Positions 3,313 to 13,583 are shown, numbered from the stretch's first letter. The stretch: 24,335 nucleotides of DNA from Adineta ricciae (GCA_905250025.1 CAJNOJ010000203.1:1-24335), one strand, 5' to 3'. Translations and numbers: made by a program. The notes: generated by a model not told the origin, from the sequence alone.

Positions 3313-3841
3313 ATGGATTTAAGTATCGTAAACGATGATTATTACCTATCCGGTATGGCTGCTTTAGTTGGTGATATTGATAGTGAGTGATTGTTTCACA
3401 GACTTGCTACATATGGAACATATTTGCTTAGAACAGTTGATGATTATGTTACGTGATGGTCGAACGTTGATTGCTCACCTACGCAGTCTTGATCAGTTTG
3501 GTTGGAAACTTCATGAAGAATTCTCTGCTCTATTGTGAGTTTTATTATGTTTAGGTAATCTTGTGCTTCATCAAGCATTCGAACGTATCTGTGTCGGTCG
3601 ACACTATGCAGATATTCCTCGTGGTTTATTCGTTATCCGTGGCGAGAATGTTCTGTTCATTGGCGAATTAGACTTCTATCAACCTTTACGCGTTCCGTTG
3701 GTGGAAGTAACCATAGAAGAAATACTCAAATTGCAGAAAGAAGACATCGAAAAGAAGGAACAGATCGAAAAAGTTCGACGGAAAGCGATGGTTGAACATG
3801 GCCTAGTCGATGAAGGAAATCCGATTGAAGAGCAATATTAA
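3313..3841 (+). CDS. LSM1: LSM1 (Sm-like protein of the cytoplasmic Lsm1-7 mRNA-decay ring); 3 exons
   Basis: Exons 3313-3382, 3432-3500, 3555-3841 (stop TAA 3839-3841); introns 49 and 54 bp. Protein ...MAALVGDIDKQLMIMLRDGRTLIAHLRSLDQFGNLVLHQAFERICVGRHYADIPRGLFVIRGENVLFIGELD... aligns with human LSM1 (LIEDIDKKHLVLLRDGRTLIGFLRSIDQFANLVLHQTVERIHVGKKYGDIPRGIFVVRGENVVLLGEID). The start may instead be the internal Met (MAAL) at about 3355. Confidence 0.85.
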
Positions 3842-3861
3842 CTTGTTTGAAGCAAACGTCT

Positions 3862-4006
3862 AATAAACTATTGTTATTCTTGTTGTTTTTGCCTTGTGAT
3901 GATTGTAAATGTCATCACTCTCTTTTTTTTCATAGTCAGATTACCCGATGTACTTTTCCGTTCATCTTGTTTATCAATCGCATTTTGATAGAAGAAAATT
4001 TCAGAT
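3862..4006 (+). promoter_or_regulatory. Intercistronic region LSM1-PAN2: AATAAA at 3862-3867; candidate acceptors tctttttttttcatAG (AG 3934-3935) and gaaaatttcAG (AG 4003-4004), the latter 2 nt upstream of the PAN2 ATG (4007)
   Basis: The LSM1 stop is at 3841 and the PAN2 ATG at 4007 (165 bp apart). Two polypyrimidine-AG acceptors lie in the spacer; the second leaves only 'at' before the ATG. Confidence 0.5.
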
Positions 4007-5888
4007 ATGGATGGCTCTGGTGATACCCCATATGCATTGGATTATTCAGAATCCATGGCATTTTTTAATAGTGCATACAATCAAACAAGTGCACAGTCGA
4101 TAACAGCGACGGAATTCGATAGTACTCAAGAGTTACTCTGGGCGGGAAGTAATGAGGTAAGGATTGATGATGTTCTCGGGAAATTATCTTTTGAAGTCCC
4201 ATTAGGGACGTGTGGCATCATTTTATGGTTGTGAACTCCGAAAACATACCGGCTTTCGTGTTTCAACAACTTCCGACATTCGAAGTATATTATCGATTGC
4301 ACAAGGACCACTCATACTCGCTTCCGATTCACTTTCATTGTATACAAGACAAGGTTTAAATATCTTCACTCATAGGTAAATATTTGAGATATACCACTCG
4401 TTGGATTGGTGTGTCTTTTAGAGCTCCTTATCTTGACAATATGCAGTGTATGTTAATACCACAATCTCATAAACAAAAGAAAATCTATGTCGGCGGTTAT
4501 AACGGACAATTATGTGAAATGGATTTTGATAAACGAACGTTGCTTCGTCAGGTAATCATGTGAATTAATACGAAAATTACGCTTACCTTTTGAACGATGT
4601 TTCGTAGGTGACCGTCGATGAGGGTGATTGTATCATATTGAAATATTGTACGCGAAATTTCATTGCAACTGGCTCGACCAACGGTGTCGTGAATCTACGC
4701 GACCCAAATTCACTTCAAGTTATTCAACGTTTTACACCTCATCATGGAAGTTTGTCTGATTTAGATATCAATAATATGTATTTAGTTACGTGTGGTTTTA
4801 CACGAAAGTAAATCTTACACATTGAAAATACCTATGTGTTCTAGAAATCTTCGTGTTTGCTCTAGAATGGATCATATGAATCTCGATCGATTCCTTGTTG
4901 TTTACGATCTACGAAACATGCAACAATTAGCGCCGGTACCGGTTTATATCGATCCATGTTTTCTTCATTATCATACAATGACAAGTACATCGGTTATGGT
5001 TGCCTCTCAAGTAACGATAGTTTCTAGCGAGATTTCATCCAAAAACTCCGCTTTCTAGTATGGACATCATACACAAGTTGATTTAACAGGTGGTTTAACT
5101 CATACCTACTCACCGATCATTAATCTAACAACTAATCCTGCTGGTATTATAACAACATTTAGTGTTTCAACCAGTATGCATTGTACAGCATTTGGCCATT
5201 CAACAGGTAAATGACATATTGAAATTCTCAATAGTTTGGCAAGTTTGATCTTAGGTACCATACATCTATTATATAAAAATGATCCACAGTGTTGTTTTAA
5301 CTATCAATCGGTTGAAACACAATTTGCCAATCCAGTACGTAGTTTTTCATTTCGCATTAGATCTCGATGTGTATTACATTCGTATATATCTCTGTTTCAG
5401 CCAGTTGATCCAAAAGTAGGAGATCTTAACGATCCAATGAGCTCTCTGTCGAGCGTACCTATTCCAATAACATCACATAAACTCTTGTCAGATATGCCTA
5501 AACAATGGACCAAATCGATCGCCAGGTAGGAAAAACAAATCAACAAAGAATGAAGTCAACAGGGGTATCTTGTTTTAGGCCAACACCGAAGATTCCAAAG
5601 GAGTTTCTTGATAATGTTCGTGTGTTTCAAGGTCTTGCTTGTGTTAAAAATCCATCAACACGTCGTGCTAATCAATGGCCCTATCCACCCGATGCAGACA
5701 CGTTGGCACCACGTGAACAAATAAAATTTTTACCTGACGAAGATGAAAATACGAATCCGAACGAGAAAAGTAATCCAGACGGAACAGCAAATGAAACTGA
5801 AGCCAACAATCTTAATTTCGATGCTCTATCACTTGATCAACAACCTCAAGATAAAGCACCAACACCTCCAACAACAGCGAACACATGA
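4007..5888 (+). CDS. PAN2-like protein comprising only the N-terminal WD40 beta-propeller and the PAN3-binding linker; no UCH-like or DEDD exonuclease domains before the stop; 9 exons
   Basis: Exons 4007-4156, 4206-4375, 4422-4551, 4608-4807, 4845-5010, 5059-5206, 5255-5334, 5401-5525, 5579-5888 (stop TGA 5886-5888); introns 37-66 bp. Colinear matches to human PAN2: ELLWAGSNE|GRVASFYGCELRKHTGFRVSTTSDIRS (human EEMLWVGSHGGHATSFFGPALERYSSFQVNGSDDIRQ); KIYVGGYNGQLCEMDFD; FIATGSTNGVVNLRDPNSLQVIQRFTPHHGSLSDLDINNMYLVTCGF (human FFCGHTSGKVSLRDLRTFKVEHEFDAFSGSLSDFDVHGNLLAACGF); LDRFLVVYDLRNMQQLAPVPVYIDPCFLHY (human CDRFLKVYDLRMMRAITPLQVHVDPAFLRF); GLACVKNPSTRRANQWPY (human GYAPNPRTRLRNQIPY). The ORF then runs into a low-complexity acidic tail and stops. 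Only AT-rich non-coding sequence with an AATAAA (5989-5994) follows before CRIPT. Confidence 0.8.
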
Positions 5889-6238
5889 AATGTTATTAGT
5901 GAAACTTTCTTTCCCTTTTATACATACTTTTGTCTTCATTTATTCCATATTTTGTTGTTGGTTATTCTTATTGCGTATACATATATAGAATAAAAAAATA
6001 TTTTCTTTTCGTTTCTCGTATACAGTGCATCTCTGTACGGATCATCAACACATTTTCCAATGTATCAATTGGTGCGAGGTACATACATATGCATGGCAAG
6101 AACAAGCTCCATCTATGCTCAAAAGAGGACGCGAGTTGTTTCTGGCAACTATATATTGGTTGAGTTTTGTACAGAAGAAAAGAGTGAATCTATAATATTG
6201 TCGTCGTTTCATTTCATTTCGTTTACCTAATAACAATC

Positions 6239-6753
6239 ATGGTTTGTGATGCATGTAAGTTTGCCTTCGACTTATTTGTCTGAAATAAAGACGAAATGTT
6301 GATTTAGGTCAAAAGAAAGTTGGTCGTATCGCCACTCAAGATGTTTGGAAAAGTATGTTGAAGAAATGTTATAACTATTAATTATTGATGGTTTTCATAT
6401 TTTAGGTGGTTCACGCAATACCGTCGGTATGATGACTTTCCCCTCAATTCATTCTGCATTCGTTTTCTCGTTTTAATAGAAAGTGGCGGTAAAAAACTGA
6501 ATGAAAACAAATTGCTATCAGGCAAATCTTCTCGGTATATTGGATTTCGAACAATAACTTCATTCTTATCATCTCTTACTCTTATAGGTACAGCCCATAT
6601 ACGACAAAGTTTAACAAGTGTAAACTCTGCAAATCAACAATTCATCAGCCCGGAAGTGCTTATTGCCAAGGTTGTGCGTACAAATTAGGCATATGTGGCA
6701 TGTGTGGAGTGAAAATTTTAGAAACAAAAAATTATCGTCAGTCTGCTGTTTAA
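6239..6753 (+). CDS. CRIPT: CRIPT (cysteine-rich PDZ-binding protein); 5 exons
   Basis: Exons 6239-6254, 6308-6352, 6406-6426, 6480-6534, 6588-6753 (stop TAA 6751-6753); introns 53 bp each. Protein MVCDACQKKVGRIATQDVWKSGSRNTVESGGKKLNENKLLSGKSSRYSPYTTKFNKCKLCKSTIHQPGSAYCQGCAYKLGICGMCGVKILETKNYRQSAV aligns along its length with human CRIPT (MVCEKCEKKLG...CRICKSSVHQPGSHYCQGCAYKKGICAMCGKKVLDTKNYKQTSV). The C-terminal -QSAV is a PDZ ligand like human -QTSV. Confidence 0.85.
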
Positions 6754-6793
6754 ATCGATCCCTTTTGCGTTATGATTGTAATTACATACGAGT

Positions 6794-6829
6794 AATAAAG
6801 ATCTCCTCTAATTTGTTTTTCAGATAAAT
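6794..6829 (+). promoter_or_regulatory. Intercistronic region CRIPT-HINT: AATAAA at 6794-6799, acceptor atttgtttttcAG (AG 6822-6823) 6 nt upstream of the HINT ATG (6830)
   Basis: The CRIPT stop is at 6753 and the HINT ATG at 6830 (76 bp apart). Sequence gagtaataaagatctcctctaatttgtttttcag|ataaatATGtcg. Confidence 0.55.
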
Positions 6830-7267
<438 letters not shown>

Positions 7268-12428: not shown

Positions 12429-13583
12429 TTATAGTTGTGGCTGTTTCCACCGGTATCCGATTGTAAAACTACCTGTCGTACGTATTGATGATGCTGTCGG
12501 CTGACGGATAAGCTGAAATTGTTCATAGTTCAATGAATTAGTCGGATTTATCGACGTATCATTATCATAAACATTAATCGTCTCAAAATAATGCGACATT
12601 TTAATTTGACATTTAATTAGAAATCGTCTTAATTCTCGTCGAAATTTTGAGCCGAAAAAAATGTAAATATAAAAGTTCATTGCAAATGAAATGTGATAAA
12701 TCAAATGAAAATAATGTTCTAATTGTTTAAAGAATTTCGTTTGAAATCTTTCATCATTAGACAGTAAACGCCATGTATGAATACACGCATATGGTGCGCA
12801 AACAATTAGATACGATGTCGAAACAGTTAACAACAACTTGGTCATTGAACGCGACGCTTTGCATCGTGTTAAAACATGAAAGTTCTTCAATTGAGAGTTG
12901 TTCGTTTGAAATAACAGTTGATGCTGGCTATTCCTCATTCGTCGTAGTGATATCAAGATGATTGCATTCATGGTTATAATCATCATATACGGAATGAGAA
13001 AAACGATCAAACAGTCGATAATATCCATGATCGCATTTAGTTTGCGAAATTTTTCGTAGGAATAACAATATCCACCGACAATACCGACAATGAATGGAAT
13101 GTACGAATAGATCAAACAGGCAATAAGAACGATACATAAAGCCAAACAACGTGATCGATACCATGAGAGAACATAAGAAACACGAATAGGCTGTGTAACA
13201 GCAAATAAACGTTGAGCCGTGAATGCAACTGTATAATACGCATTGATAAAATTACAAACGTACGTTAGGTATAAACTTGATTGACAAATGATTGGATGAT
13301 GTAAAATATTGATATAATTTGTCAACCATAAACAAAACAATACCGATAAATACATCGTATCTGATATAGCCATGTAGAATAGAAATGGATATACGGACAT
13401 CGTTGTTCCAACGGTTGTTCGTAAGGCTCGTTGACCAAAAATGATAATAACAAAACCATTGCCGATACATCCGATAATGACTAATAACAGCAAATAGATG
13501 TGTGTAAAGAAGAAATTGACAGGATTGAATTCAGTTGATAGTAGAGTGGTGTAATTAGAAGGCATTGATGTCAGATTCGCCAT
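12429..13583 (-). CDS. Intronless class-A (rhodopsin-like) orphan G-protein-coupled receptor, 384 aa
   Basis: Single uninterrupted 1155-nt ORF. It has seven hydrophobic segments, N-glycosylation sites in the N-terminus (NLT, NYT), and a GNGFVIIIF TM1 motif. The DRY position is occupied by AQRL, there is a TM6 CAPY motif, and TM7 carries NFYIYIFF (NPxxY-like) followed by a basic helix-8 (GSKFRRELRRF). No closer family assignment is possible from sequence alone. Confidence 0.75.
   Translation of the reverse strand: MANLTSMPSNYTTLLSTEFNPVNFFFTHIYLLLLVIIGCIGNGFVIIIFGQRALRTTVGTTMSVYPFLFYMAISDTMYLSVLFCLWLTNYINILHHPIICQSSLYLTYVCNFINAYYTVAFTAQRLFAVTQPIRVSYVLSWYRSRCLALCIVLIACLIYSYIPFIVGIVGGYCYSYEKFRKLNAIMDIIDCLIVFLIPYMMIITMNAIILISLRRMRNSQHQLLFQTNNSQLKNFHVLTRCKASRSMTKLLLTVSTSYLIVCAPYACIHTWRLLSNDERFQTKFFKQLEHYFHLIYHISFAMNFYIYIFFGSKFRRELRRFLIKCQIKMSHYFETINVYDNDTSINPTNSLNYEQFQLIRQPTASSIRTTGSFTIGYRWKQPQL

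What the first reader, a model, noticed from the sequence alone, without database searches (positions are those of the whole stretch)
4007..5888. PAN2 homolog truncated after the WD40 propeller and PAN3-interaction linker - no UCH-like or DEDD exonuclease domains
The 9-exon gene aligns colinearly with the first ~450 residues of human PAN2: the WD40 blades and the linker that inserts into the PAN3 dimer, with GLACVKNPSTRRANQWPY matching GYAPNPRTRLRNQIPY. It then runs into a short acidic low-complexity tail and a stop (5886-5888). A polyA signal (5989-5994) and the next gene CRIPT follow. Canonical PAN2 is about 1200 aa and its deadenylase activity resides in the C-terminal DEDD domain. This locus therefore encodes either a catalytically dead PAN3-binding decoy or regulator, or the N-terminal half of a split PAN2 whose nuclease half is encoded elsewhere.
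Basis: partly seen in the sequence, partly recalled or inferred. Interest (0 to 1): 0.7.

Follow-up and report, generated by a model that had tools for sequence, protein, structure and literature searches.

The report
Nuclease-less PAN2 conserved across rotifers
Rotifers carry an expressed, strongly conserved version of the mRNA-tail-trimming enzyme PAN2 that keeps only the part that docks onto its partner PAN3 and lacks the enzyme half; I could not determine whether that half is lost or encoded elsewhere.

Summary
Window 4007-5888 (+) holds a clean 9-exon gene (all GT-AG, introns 46-66 nt) encoding 485 aa. It is identical to an annotated Adineta ricciae protein, so the window comes from a bdelloid rotifer. 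Residues 12-325 form a PAN2-type WD40 propeller and 331-420 form the PAN3-interaction linker. The last 65 aa are an acidic, disordered tail. There is no UCH-like or DEDD domain in the protein or anywhere in the 24 kb window.

The truncation is not an artefact. Spliced cDNA contigs from related bdelloids confirm all eight junctions and the stop. Proteins of 479-487 aa occur in Adineta, Rotaria and (as a partial model ending at the same point) Didymodactylos. Homologues of 465-516 aa occur in monogonont rotifers such as Brachionus. dN/dS is 0.04 for the propeller and 0.07 for the linker.

The most likely function is a non-catalytic PAN3-clamping subunit. I could not determine whether a separate nuclease half, or a full-length paralogue, exists elsewhere in rotifer genomes, because the capped searches could not reach them. 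I found no literature on this. It is a new variant of a known kind and moderately to highly interesting.

The parts
4007..4156 (+). Exon 1 (start codon 4007-4009). An AG at 4003-4004, two nt before the ATG, is conserved in the bdelloid cDNA contigs and may be a spliced-leader acceptor.
4206..4375 (+). Exon 2
   Evidence: AG/GT borders. Junctions confirmed by a gap-free alignment of the predicted mRNA to cDNA contig L088.
4422..4551 (+). Exon 3
4608..4807 (+). Exon 4
4866..5010 (+). Exon 5
5059..5206 (+). Exon 6
5255..5334 (+). Exon 7
5401..5525 (+). Exon 8
5579..5888 (+). Exon 9, ending in TGA at 5886-5888
   Evidence: cDNA contigs L087 and L088 read straight through to the equivalent stop.
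4040..5286 (+). Region encoding the PAN2-type WD40 beta-propeller (aa 12-325; introns included in the span)
   Evidence: Pfam PAN2_N E=4e-47. AF2 pLDDT about 90. Foldseek top 5 hits are all PAN2 WD40 structures. dN/dS 0.037.
5302..5690 (+). Region encoding the PAN3-interaction domain / linker (aa 331-420). It contains LLSDMP (5479-5496), the beta-hairpin VRVF..GLAC (5616-5645) and RRANQ (5661-5675).
   Evidence: Alignment to human and C. thermophilum PAN2, mapped onto the interface described by Wolf et al. 2014. dN/dS 0.074. Hairpin predicted by AF2.
5691..5885 (+). Region encoding the acidic, disordered C-terminal tail (aa 421-485). It carries the bdelloid-conserved motifs APREQ[IM]KFLPDED and NLNFDxLS.
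   Evidence: Composition. pLDDT 32-45. dN/dS 0.35. Alignment.
5989..5994 (+). AATAAA polyadenylation signal
   Evidence: The colinear 3'UTR with AATAAA is present in cDNA contig L087.
3563..3841 (+). Last exon of the upstream neighbour LSm1. It lies 165 nt from the PAN2N start and is co-transcribed with it in a related bdelloid.
   Evidence: PDB best hits are all LSm1, E=2e-15. L088 spans LSm1 3' exon, intergenic spacer and spliced PAN2N.

Best explanation
This is a genuine, expressed rotifer gene for a nuclease-less PAN2, here called PAN2N. It consists of a PAN2-type seven-bladed WD40 propeller, the linker that wraps around the asymmetric PAN3 dimer, and a short disordered acidic tail. It corresponds almost exactly to the 'WD40-CS1' fragment that structural biologists excised to crystallise with PAN3.

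Shown:
- the gene model, its splicing and its expression;
- the absence of UCH and DEDD domains from the protein and the locus;
- the same architecture in bdelloids and monogononts;
- strong purifying selection on the propeller and linker.

Inferred:
- PAN2N still binds a PAN3 dimer through the conserved linker. It acts as a non-catalytic subunit that locks and positions PAN3 on PABP-coated poly(A).
- The rotifer PAN3-PAN2N particle therefore works as a poly(A)-RNP recognition or adaptor module rather than as a deadenylase.
- Tail removal would be done by another nuclease, either CCR4-NOT or a detached UCH-Exo protein if one exists.
For: - Gene model: nine GT-AG exons giving 485 aa, identical to an annotated A. 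ricciae protein.
- Homology: PAN2_N E=4e-47; human PAN2 aa 75-457 E=8e-60. The AF2 propeller has pLDDT about 90, and the top five Foldseek hits are PAN2 WD40 structures, including the 4CZY and 4D0K 'PAN2 (WD40-CS1) with PAN3' complexes.
- Transcripts: the predicted mRNA aligns with zero gaps over 1418 nt to cDNA contig L088. L087 continues colinearly through the stop into the 3'UTR and AATAAA.
- Bdelloid conservation: complete proteins of 479-487 aa in two A. ricciae copies, A. steineri, A. vaga, three Rotaria species and a bdelloid metatranscriptome contig; the partial Didymodactylos model ends at the same place. Synteny LSm1-PAN2N-CRIPT-HINT is conserved in Rotaria.
- Monogonont conservation: about 12 clusters of 465-516 aa carrying only PAN2_N, including Brachionus calyciflorus. 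Four independent ~1.65 kb contigs each encode the same 499-aa ORF.
- Selection: dN/dS is 0.037 for the propeller, 0.074 for the linker and 0.35 for the tail, at dS about 0.9.
- Linker features: the hydrophobic anchor L..M/W, the beta-hairpin and the RNQ groove motif that contact Pan3 are all retained.
- Experimental precedent: Wolf et al. 2014 showed that removing UCH+Exo does not impair Pan3 binding and that the linker is the binding determinant.
- No UCH or DEDD coding sequence in the window, in six Rotaria loci or in two monogonont contigs.
Against: - PAN3 binding is inferred from sequence only. I could not even confirm that rotifers have PAN3.
- I could not search rotifer genomes for the UCH+DEDD half. 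'Non-catalytic complex' is therefore not separated from 'nuclease supplied in trans' or from 'a canonical paralogue also present'.
- The bdelloid anchor tryptophan is replaced by methionine (LLSDMP), although single-residue changes there did not break binding in vitro.
- The rotifer N-half is more diverged from other animals (about 34-37% identity) than other phyla are from each other (about 45-50%). This could mean an altered function.
Confidence: 0.55

Rival explanations
1. Split PAN2. An ancient gene fission left the WD40+linker half here and the UCH-like+DEDD exonuclease half as a separate gene elsewhere in rotifer genomes. The two products reassemble on PAN3 into an active deadenylase.
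For: - The break lies exactly at the domain boundary, just before the UCH domain starts (alignment).
- The N-half is as strongly constrained as a subunit of an active complex would be.
- Wolf et al. note residual activity and contacts outside the linker when the linker is deleted, so some trans association is conceivable.
- Nothing here excludes a C-half gene.
Against: - No C-half within 18 kb downstream or 4 kb upstream in the window, within the six Rotaria loci, or within 8-10 kb in a monogonont contig.
- Among 80 metagenome and metatranscriptome PAN2 C-half loci, none was rotifer-like. Every locus with enough upstream sequence had the N-half fused. Rotifer N-half transcripts, by contrast, are present in such data.
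- A detached UCH-Exo would lack the high-affinity tether and cannot bind RNA alone (Wolf 2014 abstract).
Confidence: 0.25
2. Accessory truncated paralogue. Rotifers also keep a canonical full-length PAN2, and this gene is an old duplicate that competes for, or modulates, PAN3. This would be a true decoy or regulator.
For: - Short N-half-only PAN2 entries are also annotated in some insects that do have full-length PAN2 (Vespula 473 aa, Gryllus 452 aa). Such forms can therefore coexist, if those entries are real.
- The rotifer N-half is unusually diverged.
- My searches could not label most of the full-length hits by organism.
Against: - In the exhaustive phmmer search, no full-length protein is closer than about 37% identity to the rotifer N-half. 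The ten top full-length hits that could be named are lobster, snails, nematodes, Ciona, a fungus and an ichthyosporean.
- Word-based searches seeded with bdelloid and monogonont proteins returned only truncated rotifer proteins.
Confidence: 0.15
3. Artefact or dead gene. The stop would be due to an assembly or sequencing error, the locus would be a pseudogene, or the annotated product would be a minor isoform of a longer gene with unrecognised downstream exons.
For: The finding rests on one window. Single-individual bdelloid assemblies do contain errors; for example, a duplicated partial copy appears in one Rotaria contig.
Against: - The stop region is shared by many independent assemblies and species and by spliced cDNA contigs.
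- dN/dS is 0.07 overall.
- CRIPT begins 350 nt after the stop, and no PAN2 C-half coding sequence lies anywhere in the window.
Confidence: 0.03

Closest known systems
Canonical PAN2 (human PAN2/USP52, yeast Pan2), catalytic subunit of the PAN2-PAN3 deadenylase
   Same: - N-terminal PAN2-type WD40 propeller and PAN3-interaction linker, colinear with human residues 75-457.
- Same fold.
- The linker motifs that contact PAN3 are retained.
   Different: - Lacks the whole catalytic unit. In human PAN2 the UCH-like plus DEDD/RNase-T exonuclease unit spans residues 516-1202. The protein therefore cannot be a deadenylase on its own.
- It ends in a 65-aa acidic disordered tail.
- In all ~60 non-rotifer eukaryotic loci examined, the two halves are fused.
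Engineered PAN2 'WD40-CS1' / PID fragments used for PAN2-PAN3 crystal structures (PDB 4CZY, 4D0K; Wolf et al. 2014 ctPan2 truncations)
   Same: - Almost the same boundaries as the natural rotifer protein.
- These fragments bind the PAN3 pseudokinase/C-terminal dimer with 1:2 stoichiometry without the UCH-Exo unit.
   Different: Those are laboratory truncations of full-length genes. Here the truncation is the natural gene product, fixed in a phylum.
Non-catalytic or regulatory variants within deadenylase complexes (e.g. the two human PAN3 isoforms with antagonistic effects, RNA 2017, PMC5558910)
   Same: Precedent that PAN2-PAN3 output is tuned by subunit variants that differ in PAN2 engagement. 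I saw only the title and abstract of this paper.
   Different: Those are splice isoforms of PAN3 in a system that retains an active PAN2. Here the variant is PAN2 itself, and it may be the only PAN2.
Short N-half-only PAN2 database entries in insects (Vespula squamosa 'isoform X1' 473 aa; Gryllus bimaculatus 452 aa)
   Same: They contain only PAN2_N and are of similar length.
   Different: - These species also have ~1300-aa PAN2.
- The short entries may be partial models or minor isoforms.
- I did not check them for conservation or expression.

Membership tests
PAN2 (PAN2-PAN3 deadenylase catalytic subunit) | N-terminal PAN2-type seven-bladed WD40 beta-propeller | tested here: met
   Pfam PF20770 PAN2_N E=4.3e-47 against a cut-off of 26.6 bits. 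AF2 propeller aa 12-325 with pLDDT about 90. Foldseek top 5 are PAN2 WD40 structures, TMt 0.71-0.87 for the four WD40-scale targets (9qtu_C, 4d0k_A, 4czv_A, 4czy_A); 0.24 for full-length yeast Pan2 6r5k_A.
PAN2 (PAN2-PAN3 deadenylase catalytic subunit) | PAN3-interaction linker (PID/CS1) between the WD40 and UCH domains: hydrophobic anchor, beta-hairpin, RNQ groove motif | tested here: met
   - Colinear alignment to human 372-457 and C. thermophilum 325-405.
- ctPan2 F357/W360 correspond to L370/M373 in bdelloids; monogononts keep W.
- The hairpin corresponds to VRVF/GLAC at 396-405, which AF2 predicts as a hairpin. The groove motif corresponds to RRANQ at 411-415.
- dN/dS 0.074.
PAN2 (PAN2-PAN3 deadenylase catalytic subunit) | Inactive UCH-like (USP) domain | tested here: not met
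   The protein stops 65 aa after the linker and has no Pfam UCH hit. tblastn of UCH+Exo halves against the window, six Rotaria loci and two monogonont contigs is negative.
PAN2 (PAN2-PAN3 deadenylase catalytic subunit) | C-terminal DEDD (RNase T/D-type) exonuclease domain with poly(A) 3'-exonuclease activity | tested here: not met
   No RNase_T hit in the protein and no coding trace in the locus. Activity itself is not testable here.
PAN2 (PAN2-PAN3 deadenylase catalytic subunit) | Physical 1:2 complex with a PAN3 homodimer | not testable with these tools
   Inferred only, from linker conservation and from Wolf et al. 2014 truncation data. The presence of rotifer PAN3 was not verified.
Split (fissioned) gene pair | A complementary gene encoding the missing C-terminal domains exists elsewhere in the same genome | tested here: inconclusive
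   - Profile search: only the best 120 of 581 hits were shown, none from rotifers.
- GTDB scan: empty.
- No tool could scan a rotifer genome.
Processed or unprocessed pseudogene | Disrupted ORF, relaxed constraint (dN/dS near 1), no expression | tested here: not met
   Intact ORF with canonical introns. dN/dS 0.073. Spliced transcripts are present in metatranscriptomes and RNA assemblies.

The most novel reading that the evidence does not exclude
Rotifers as a phylum have completely lost the PAN2 nuclease (UCH-Exo) yet have kept the WD40-plus-linker module under strong purifying selection since before the bdelloid-monogonont split. This would be a natural separation-of-function allele. It would show that the PAN2 N-half/PAN3 scaffold has an important nuclease-independent role, such as poly(A)-PABP RNP sensing, GW182 or RBP adaptor function, or hand-over to CCR4-NOT. 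In bdelloids the gene is co-transcribed with the decay factor LSm1.
Probability: 0.4. Interest if true: 0.75.

Novelty: new variant of a known kind. Interest (0 to 1): 0.6.

Why it matters
PAN2-PAN3 is treated as a universally conserved eukaryotic deadenylase whose WD40 and linker exist to serve the C-terminal nuclease. In every non-rotifer locus examined here the halves are fused. A whole animal phylum that keeps only the PAN3-docking half, under dN/dS of 0.04-0.07, implies one of two things. Either the scaffold has a function of its own, or a deadenylase can operate with its catalytic unit untethered. Either outcome would give a natural experiment for the debated non-catalytic roles of PAN2-PAN3 in poly(A)-RNP recognition and miRNA- or RBP-mediated decay. 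It may also bear on mRNA storage in organisms known for desiccation tolerance and dormancy. In practice, automated names such as 'PAN2-PAN3 deadenylation complex catalytic subunit' for these rotifer proteins are misleading.

Tried and rejected
1. Looked for UCH/DEDD coding sequence near the gene. I ran tblastn of five metazoan C-halves against the window (both strands), six Rotaria sordida loci and two monogonont contigs. Result: only noise.
2. Profile search of the 5.8-billion-protein collection with an alignment of six C-halves. Low-complexity spacers probably polluted the candidate set. It was uninformative for rotifers.
3. Metagenome-contig scan with the same alignment gave 80 loci, none rotifer-like. 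Candidates without an N-half were contig-edge truncations (L018/L023 are single-exon ends of ordinary multi-exon genes; L024 is 5'-cut) or a divergent full-length protist PAN2 (L051).
4. GTDB genome-contig scan: no relatives.
5. C-half-only entries among the top hits (P0173, P0193, P0232) are fragments or partial models from molluscs and corals, not split genes.
6. Stop-codon readthrough was considered and rejected. It would add only 34 non-homologous residues before a TAA (sequence).
7. A PAM2-like reading of the tail motif NLNFDALSL was rejected. The key Ala and Phe positions are not conserved among bdelloids.
8. Literature searches for rotifer or bdelloid PAN2/PAN3/deadenylase and for PAN2 gene fission found nothing relevant.
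9. The DNA of the 4180-nt contig carrying monogonont-like P0006 could not be retrieved.

Full report
**What is there.** The window is AT-rich eukaryotic DNA with very short introns. From the ATG at 4007 a nine-exon model (4007-4156, 4206-4375, 4422-4551, 4608-4807, 4866-5010, 5059-5206, 5255-5334, 5401-5525, 5579-5888) has GT..AG at every intron. Introns are 46-66 nt long. The CDS is in frame for 1458 nt and ends in TGA at 5886-5888. The 485-aa product is 100% identical to an annotated 'unnamed protein product' of Adineta ricciae (CAF1284076.1/CAF1347260.1; UniRef name 'PAN2 ... N-terminal domain-containing protein'), so the window comes from a bdelloid rotifer. AATAAA lies at 5989-5994, and CRIPT starts about 350 nt after the stop.

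**Homology.**
- Pfam finds PAN2_N (E=4.3e-47, aa 32-319) and only weak generic beta-propeller families otherwise. There is no UCH or RNase_T hit.
- Against PDB sequences the best match is human PAN2 (9qtu_C): residues 75-457 align colinearly with aa 31-419 at E=7.7e-60. Next come the fungal 'PAN2 WD40-CS1' constructs and yeast Pan2.
- An AlphaFold2 model built on a 38-sequence alignment gives three regions. The propeller (aa 12-325) is confident, with pLDDT about 90. The linker (331-420) has low to moderate confidence but contains a predicted beta-hairpin at 396-405. The tail (421-485) is disordered.
- The five best Foldseek hits in the PDB are all PAN2 WD40 structures, including the two 'PAN2 (WD40-CS1) with PAN3' complexes.

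**The linker.** Wolf et al. 2014 (PMC4158885) showed that the ctPan2 linker (316-458) is the Pan3-interaction domain and that deleting UCH+Exo does not impair Pan3 binding. They also showed how the contact is made: two hydrophobic anchors (F357, W360), a hairpin (384-393) pairing with a Pan3 'ear', and residues 399-403 sitting in a conserved Pan3 groove. Using the alignment, these map as follows:

| ctPan2 feature | Rotifer equivalent |
|---|---|
| F357 / W360 anchors | L370 / M373 of LLSDMP in bdelloids; monogononts keep the W |
| Hairpin 384-393 | VRVF..GLAC (396-405) |
| Groove residues 399-403 | RRANQ (411-415) |

The natural rotifer protein is therefore essentially the minimal PAN3-binding module.

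**Is the truncation real?** Yes, on four lines of evidence.
1. *Transcripts.* Two JGI metatranscriptome contigs from related bdelloids (L087, L088) are fully spliced copies of this gene. The window's predicted mRNA aligns to L088 over 1418 nt with no gap at 84% identity. This confirms all eight junctions. L087 differs only by two single-base insertions (one in a homopolymer run) and one in-frame 6-nt deletion. Both read straight to the equivalent stop. L087 continues colinearly for 85 nt into the 3'UTR, including AATAAA.
2. *Independent assemblies.* Complete proteins of 479-487 aa occur in two A. ricciae copies (98% identical), A. steineri, chromosome-level A. vaga, Rotaria sordida, R. socialis and R. 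magnacalcarata, and in a bdelloid metatranscriptome contig (P0165, 479 aa). The Didymodactylos carnosus model (539 aa, partial, with an LSm1 tail fused at its N-terminus) ends at the same place. Identity to the window protein is 76-90% in the other species. Gene order NDH2-LSm1-PAN2N-CRIPT-HINT-ACE(-) is the same in R. sordida.
3. *Selection.* Against L088, dS is about 0.89. dN/dS is 0.073 overall, 0.037 for the propeller, 0.074 for the linker and 0.35 for the tail.
4. *No hidden exons.* tblastn with five metazoan UCH+DEDD halves finds nothing on either strand of the window (18 kb downstream, 4 kb upstream) or in six Rotaria loci. The rest of the window encodes unrelated genes.

**How old is it?** An exhaustive phmmer search of 1.84 billion cluster representatives gave, as best non-bdelloid hit, a 484-aa protein (P0006, 40% identity) that also ends about 60 residues after the RNQ motif. 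Searching with P0006 recovered about a dozen clusters of 465-516 aa with only PAN2_N, one of them from Brachionus calyciflorus, so this group is monogonont. Four independent run assemblies each give a ~1.65-kb contig with the same 499-aa ORF and short flanks. Two monogonont-like genomic contigs have no C-half within 8-10 kb. P0006 and the bdelloid proteins are reciprocal best relatives by a small margin. The truncated architecture therefore predates the bdelloid-monogonont divergence, which from general knowledge is very ancient. In contrast, among 80 PAN2 C-half loci from metagenomes (animals, fungi, protists), every locus with enough upstream sequence has the N-half directly fused.

**What could not be settled.** The key question is whether a UCH-Exo gene, or a full-length paralogue, exists elsewhere in rotifer genomes.
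- The profile search with C-halves lists only the best 120 of 581 hits, none from rotifers.
- The GTDB scan was empty.
- No tool scans a rotifer assembly.
- The named top full-length hits to the rotifer N-half are lobster, gastropods, nematodes, Ciona, a fungus and an ichthyosporean. None exceeds about 37% identity. This argues weakly against a recent canonical paralogue.
- I could not verify PAN3 in rotifers either.

**Mechanism and ranking.**

| Reading | Probability |
|---|---|
| Non-catalytic PAN3-clamping subunit (best supported) | 0.55 |
| Split PAN2, nuclease half encoded elsewhere | 0.25 |
| Truncated paralogue beside a canonical PAN2 | 0.15 |
| Artefact, pseudogene or isoform | 0.03 |

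In the best-supported reading, PAN2N uses its conserved linker to wrap the asymmetric PAN3 dimer. Together with its WD40 domain it helps PAN3 recognise PABP-coated poly(A). In the yeast cryo-EM complex 6R5K the WD40 domain contacts the poly(A) RNP; that point is established knowledge, not tested here. The nuclease step would be carried out by something else.

Under the split-gene reading, the break sits exactly at the WD40-linker/UCH boundary, but a detached UCH-Exo would lack the high-affinity tether and cannot bind RNA alone.

**Comparison and novelty.** The protein passes the membership tests for the PAN2 N-terminal module (propeller, PID). It fails the two catalytic-unit tests (UCH-like, DEDD). 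It should not be called a 'catalytic subunit'. No paper in the searchable library mentions a truncated or split PAN2 in rotifers. The proteins exist only as automatic database entries. I rate it a new variant of a known kind, with interest 0.6.

**Context noted.** The upstream neighbour is LSm1, another mRNA-decay factor. It lies 165 nt away, and in L088 it is on the same transcript as spliced PAN2N. An AG two bases before the ATG is conserved in all three sequences. This is consistent with an operon-like, spliced-leader-resolved pair in bdelloids. I did not test that further.

Noticed in passing
window 3563-4006 (LSm1 last exon 3563-3841, AATAAA 3862, AG at 4003-4004); L088 1-600: The gene immediately upstream is LSm1, a subunit of the Lsm1-7 mRNA-decay ring (PDB best hits are all LSm1, E=2e-15). 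It ends 165 nt before the PAN2N start. A bdelloid cDNA contig carries the LSm1 3' exon, the intergenic spacer and fully spliced PAN2N on one molecule. An AG two nt before the ATG is conserved. This suggests an operon-like pair of mRNA-decay genes resolved by spliced-leader trans-splicing. The adjacency is also seen in Rotaria and Didymodactylos, but not in the two monogonont contigs.
   Followed up: partly
L004 2410-5588 (Rotaria sordida CAJNOO010003192.1): A second, partial copy of PAN2N (exons for aa 1-351, with most exons 98-100% and one block 85% identical to the R. sordida protein, matching the main copy block for block) lies upstream and is merged into the NDH2 gene model as a 682-aa 'PAN2_N + Pyr_redox' protein. 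It is most likely an assembly duplication in that single assembly.
   Followed up: partly
proteins P0313 (Vespula squamosa, 473 aa), P0327 (Gryllus bimaculatus, 452 aa), P0311-P0315: N-half-only PAN2 entries of about 450-480 aa are annotated or assembled in insects that also have ~1300-aa PAN2. They could be partial models or genuine short isoforms resembling the rotifer protein.
   Followed up: no
window 5691-5885 (tail); alignment: The bdelloid tail keeps two conserved motifs, APREQ[IM]KFLPDED and NLNFDxLS. MAFFT aligns the second with the canonical ...IKYSKLGLEDFDF... segment that opens the UCH domain, so it may be a vestige of the lost domain's first strand. Monogononts have a different conserved tail motif (E[TS]SI.L..MIQKPLET).
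   Followed up: partly
window 12429-13583 (-): An intronless 384-aa ORF encodes a rhodopsin-family GPCR (7tm_1 E=8e-12; Srw-like). It stands out in a window where the other genes have many short introns.
   Followed up: no
window 6240-7267 (+): CRIPT and a HINT-type histidine-triad gene follow PAN2N on the same strand. The spacer between CRIPT and HINT is about 75 nt. This extends a same-strand cluster LSm1-PAN2N-CRIPT-HINT that is conserved in Rotaria.
   Followed up: no
JGI sample 3300059473, 4180-nt contig carrying P0006 (no DNA available): The monogonont-like 484-aa ORF occupies 159-1613 of a 4180-nt contig, and no other gene is called on it. The content of the remaining ~2.5 kb could not be inspected.
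   Followed up: no
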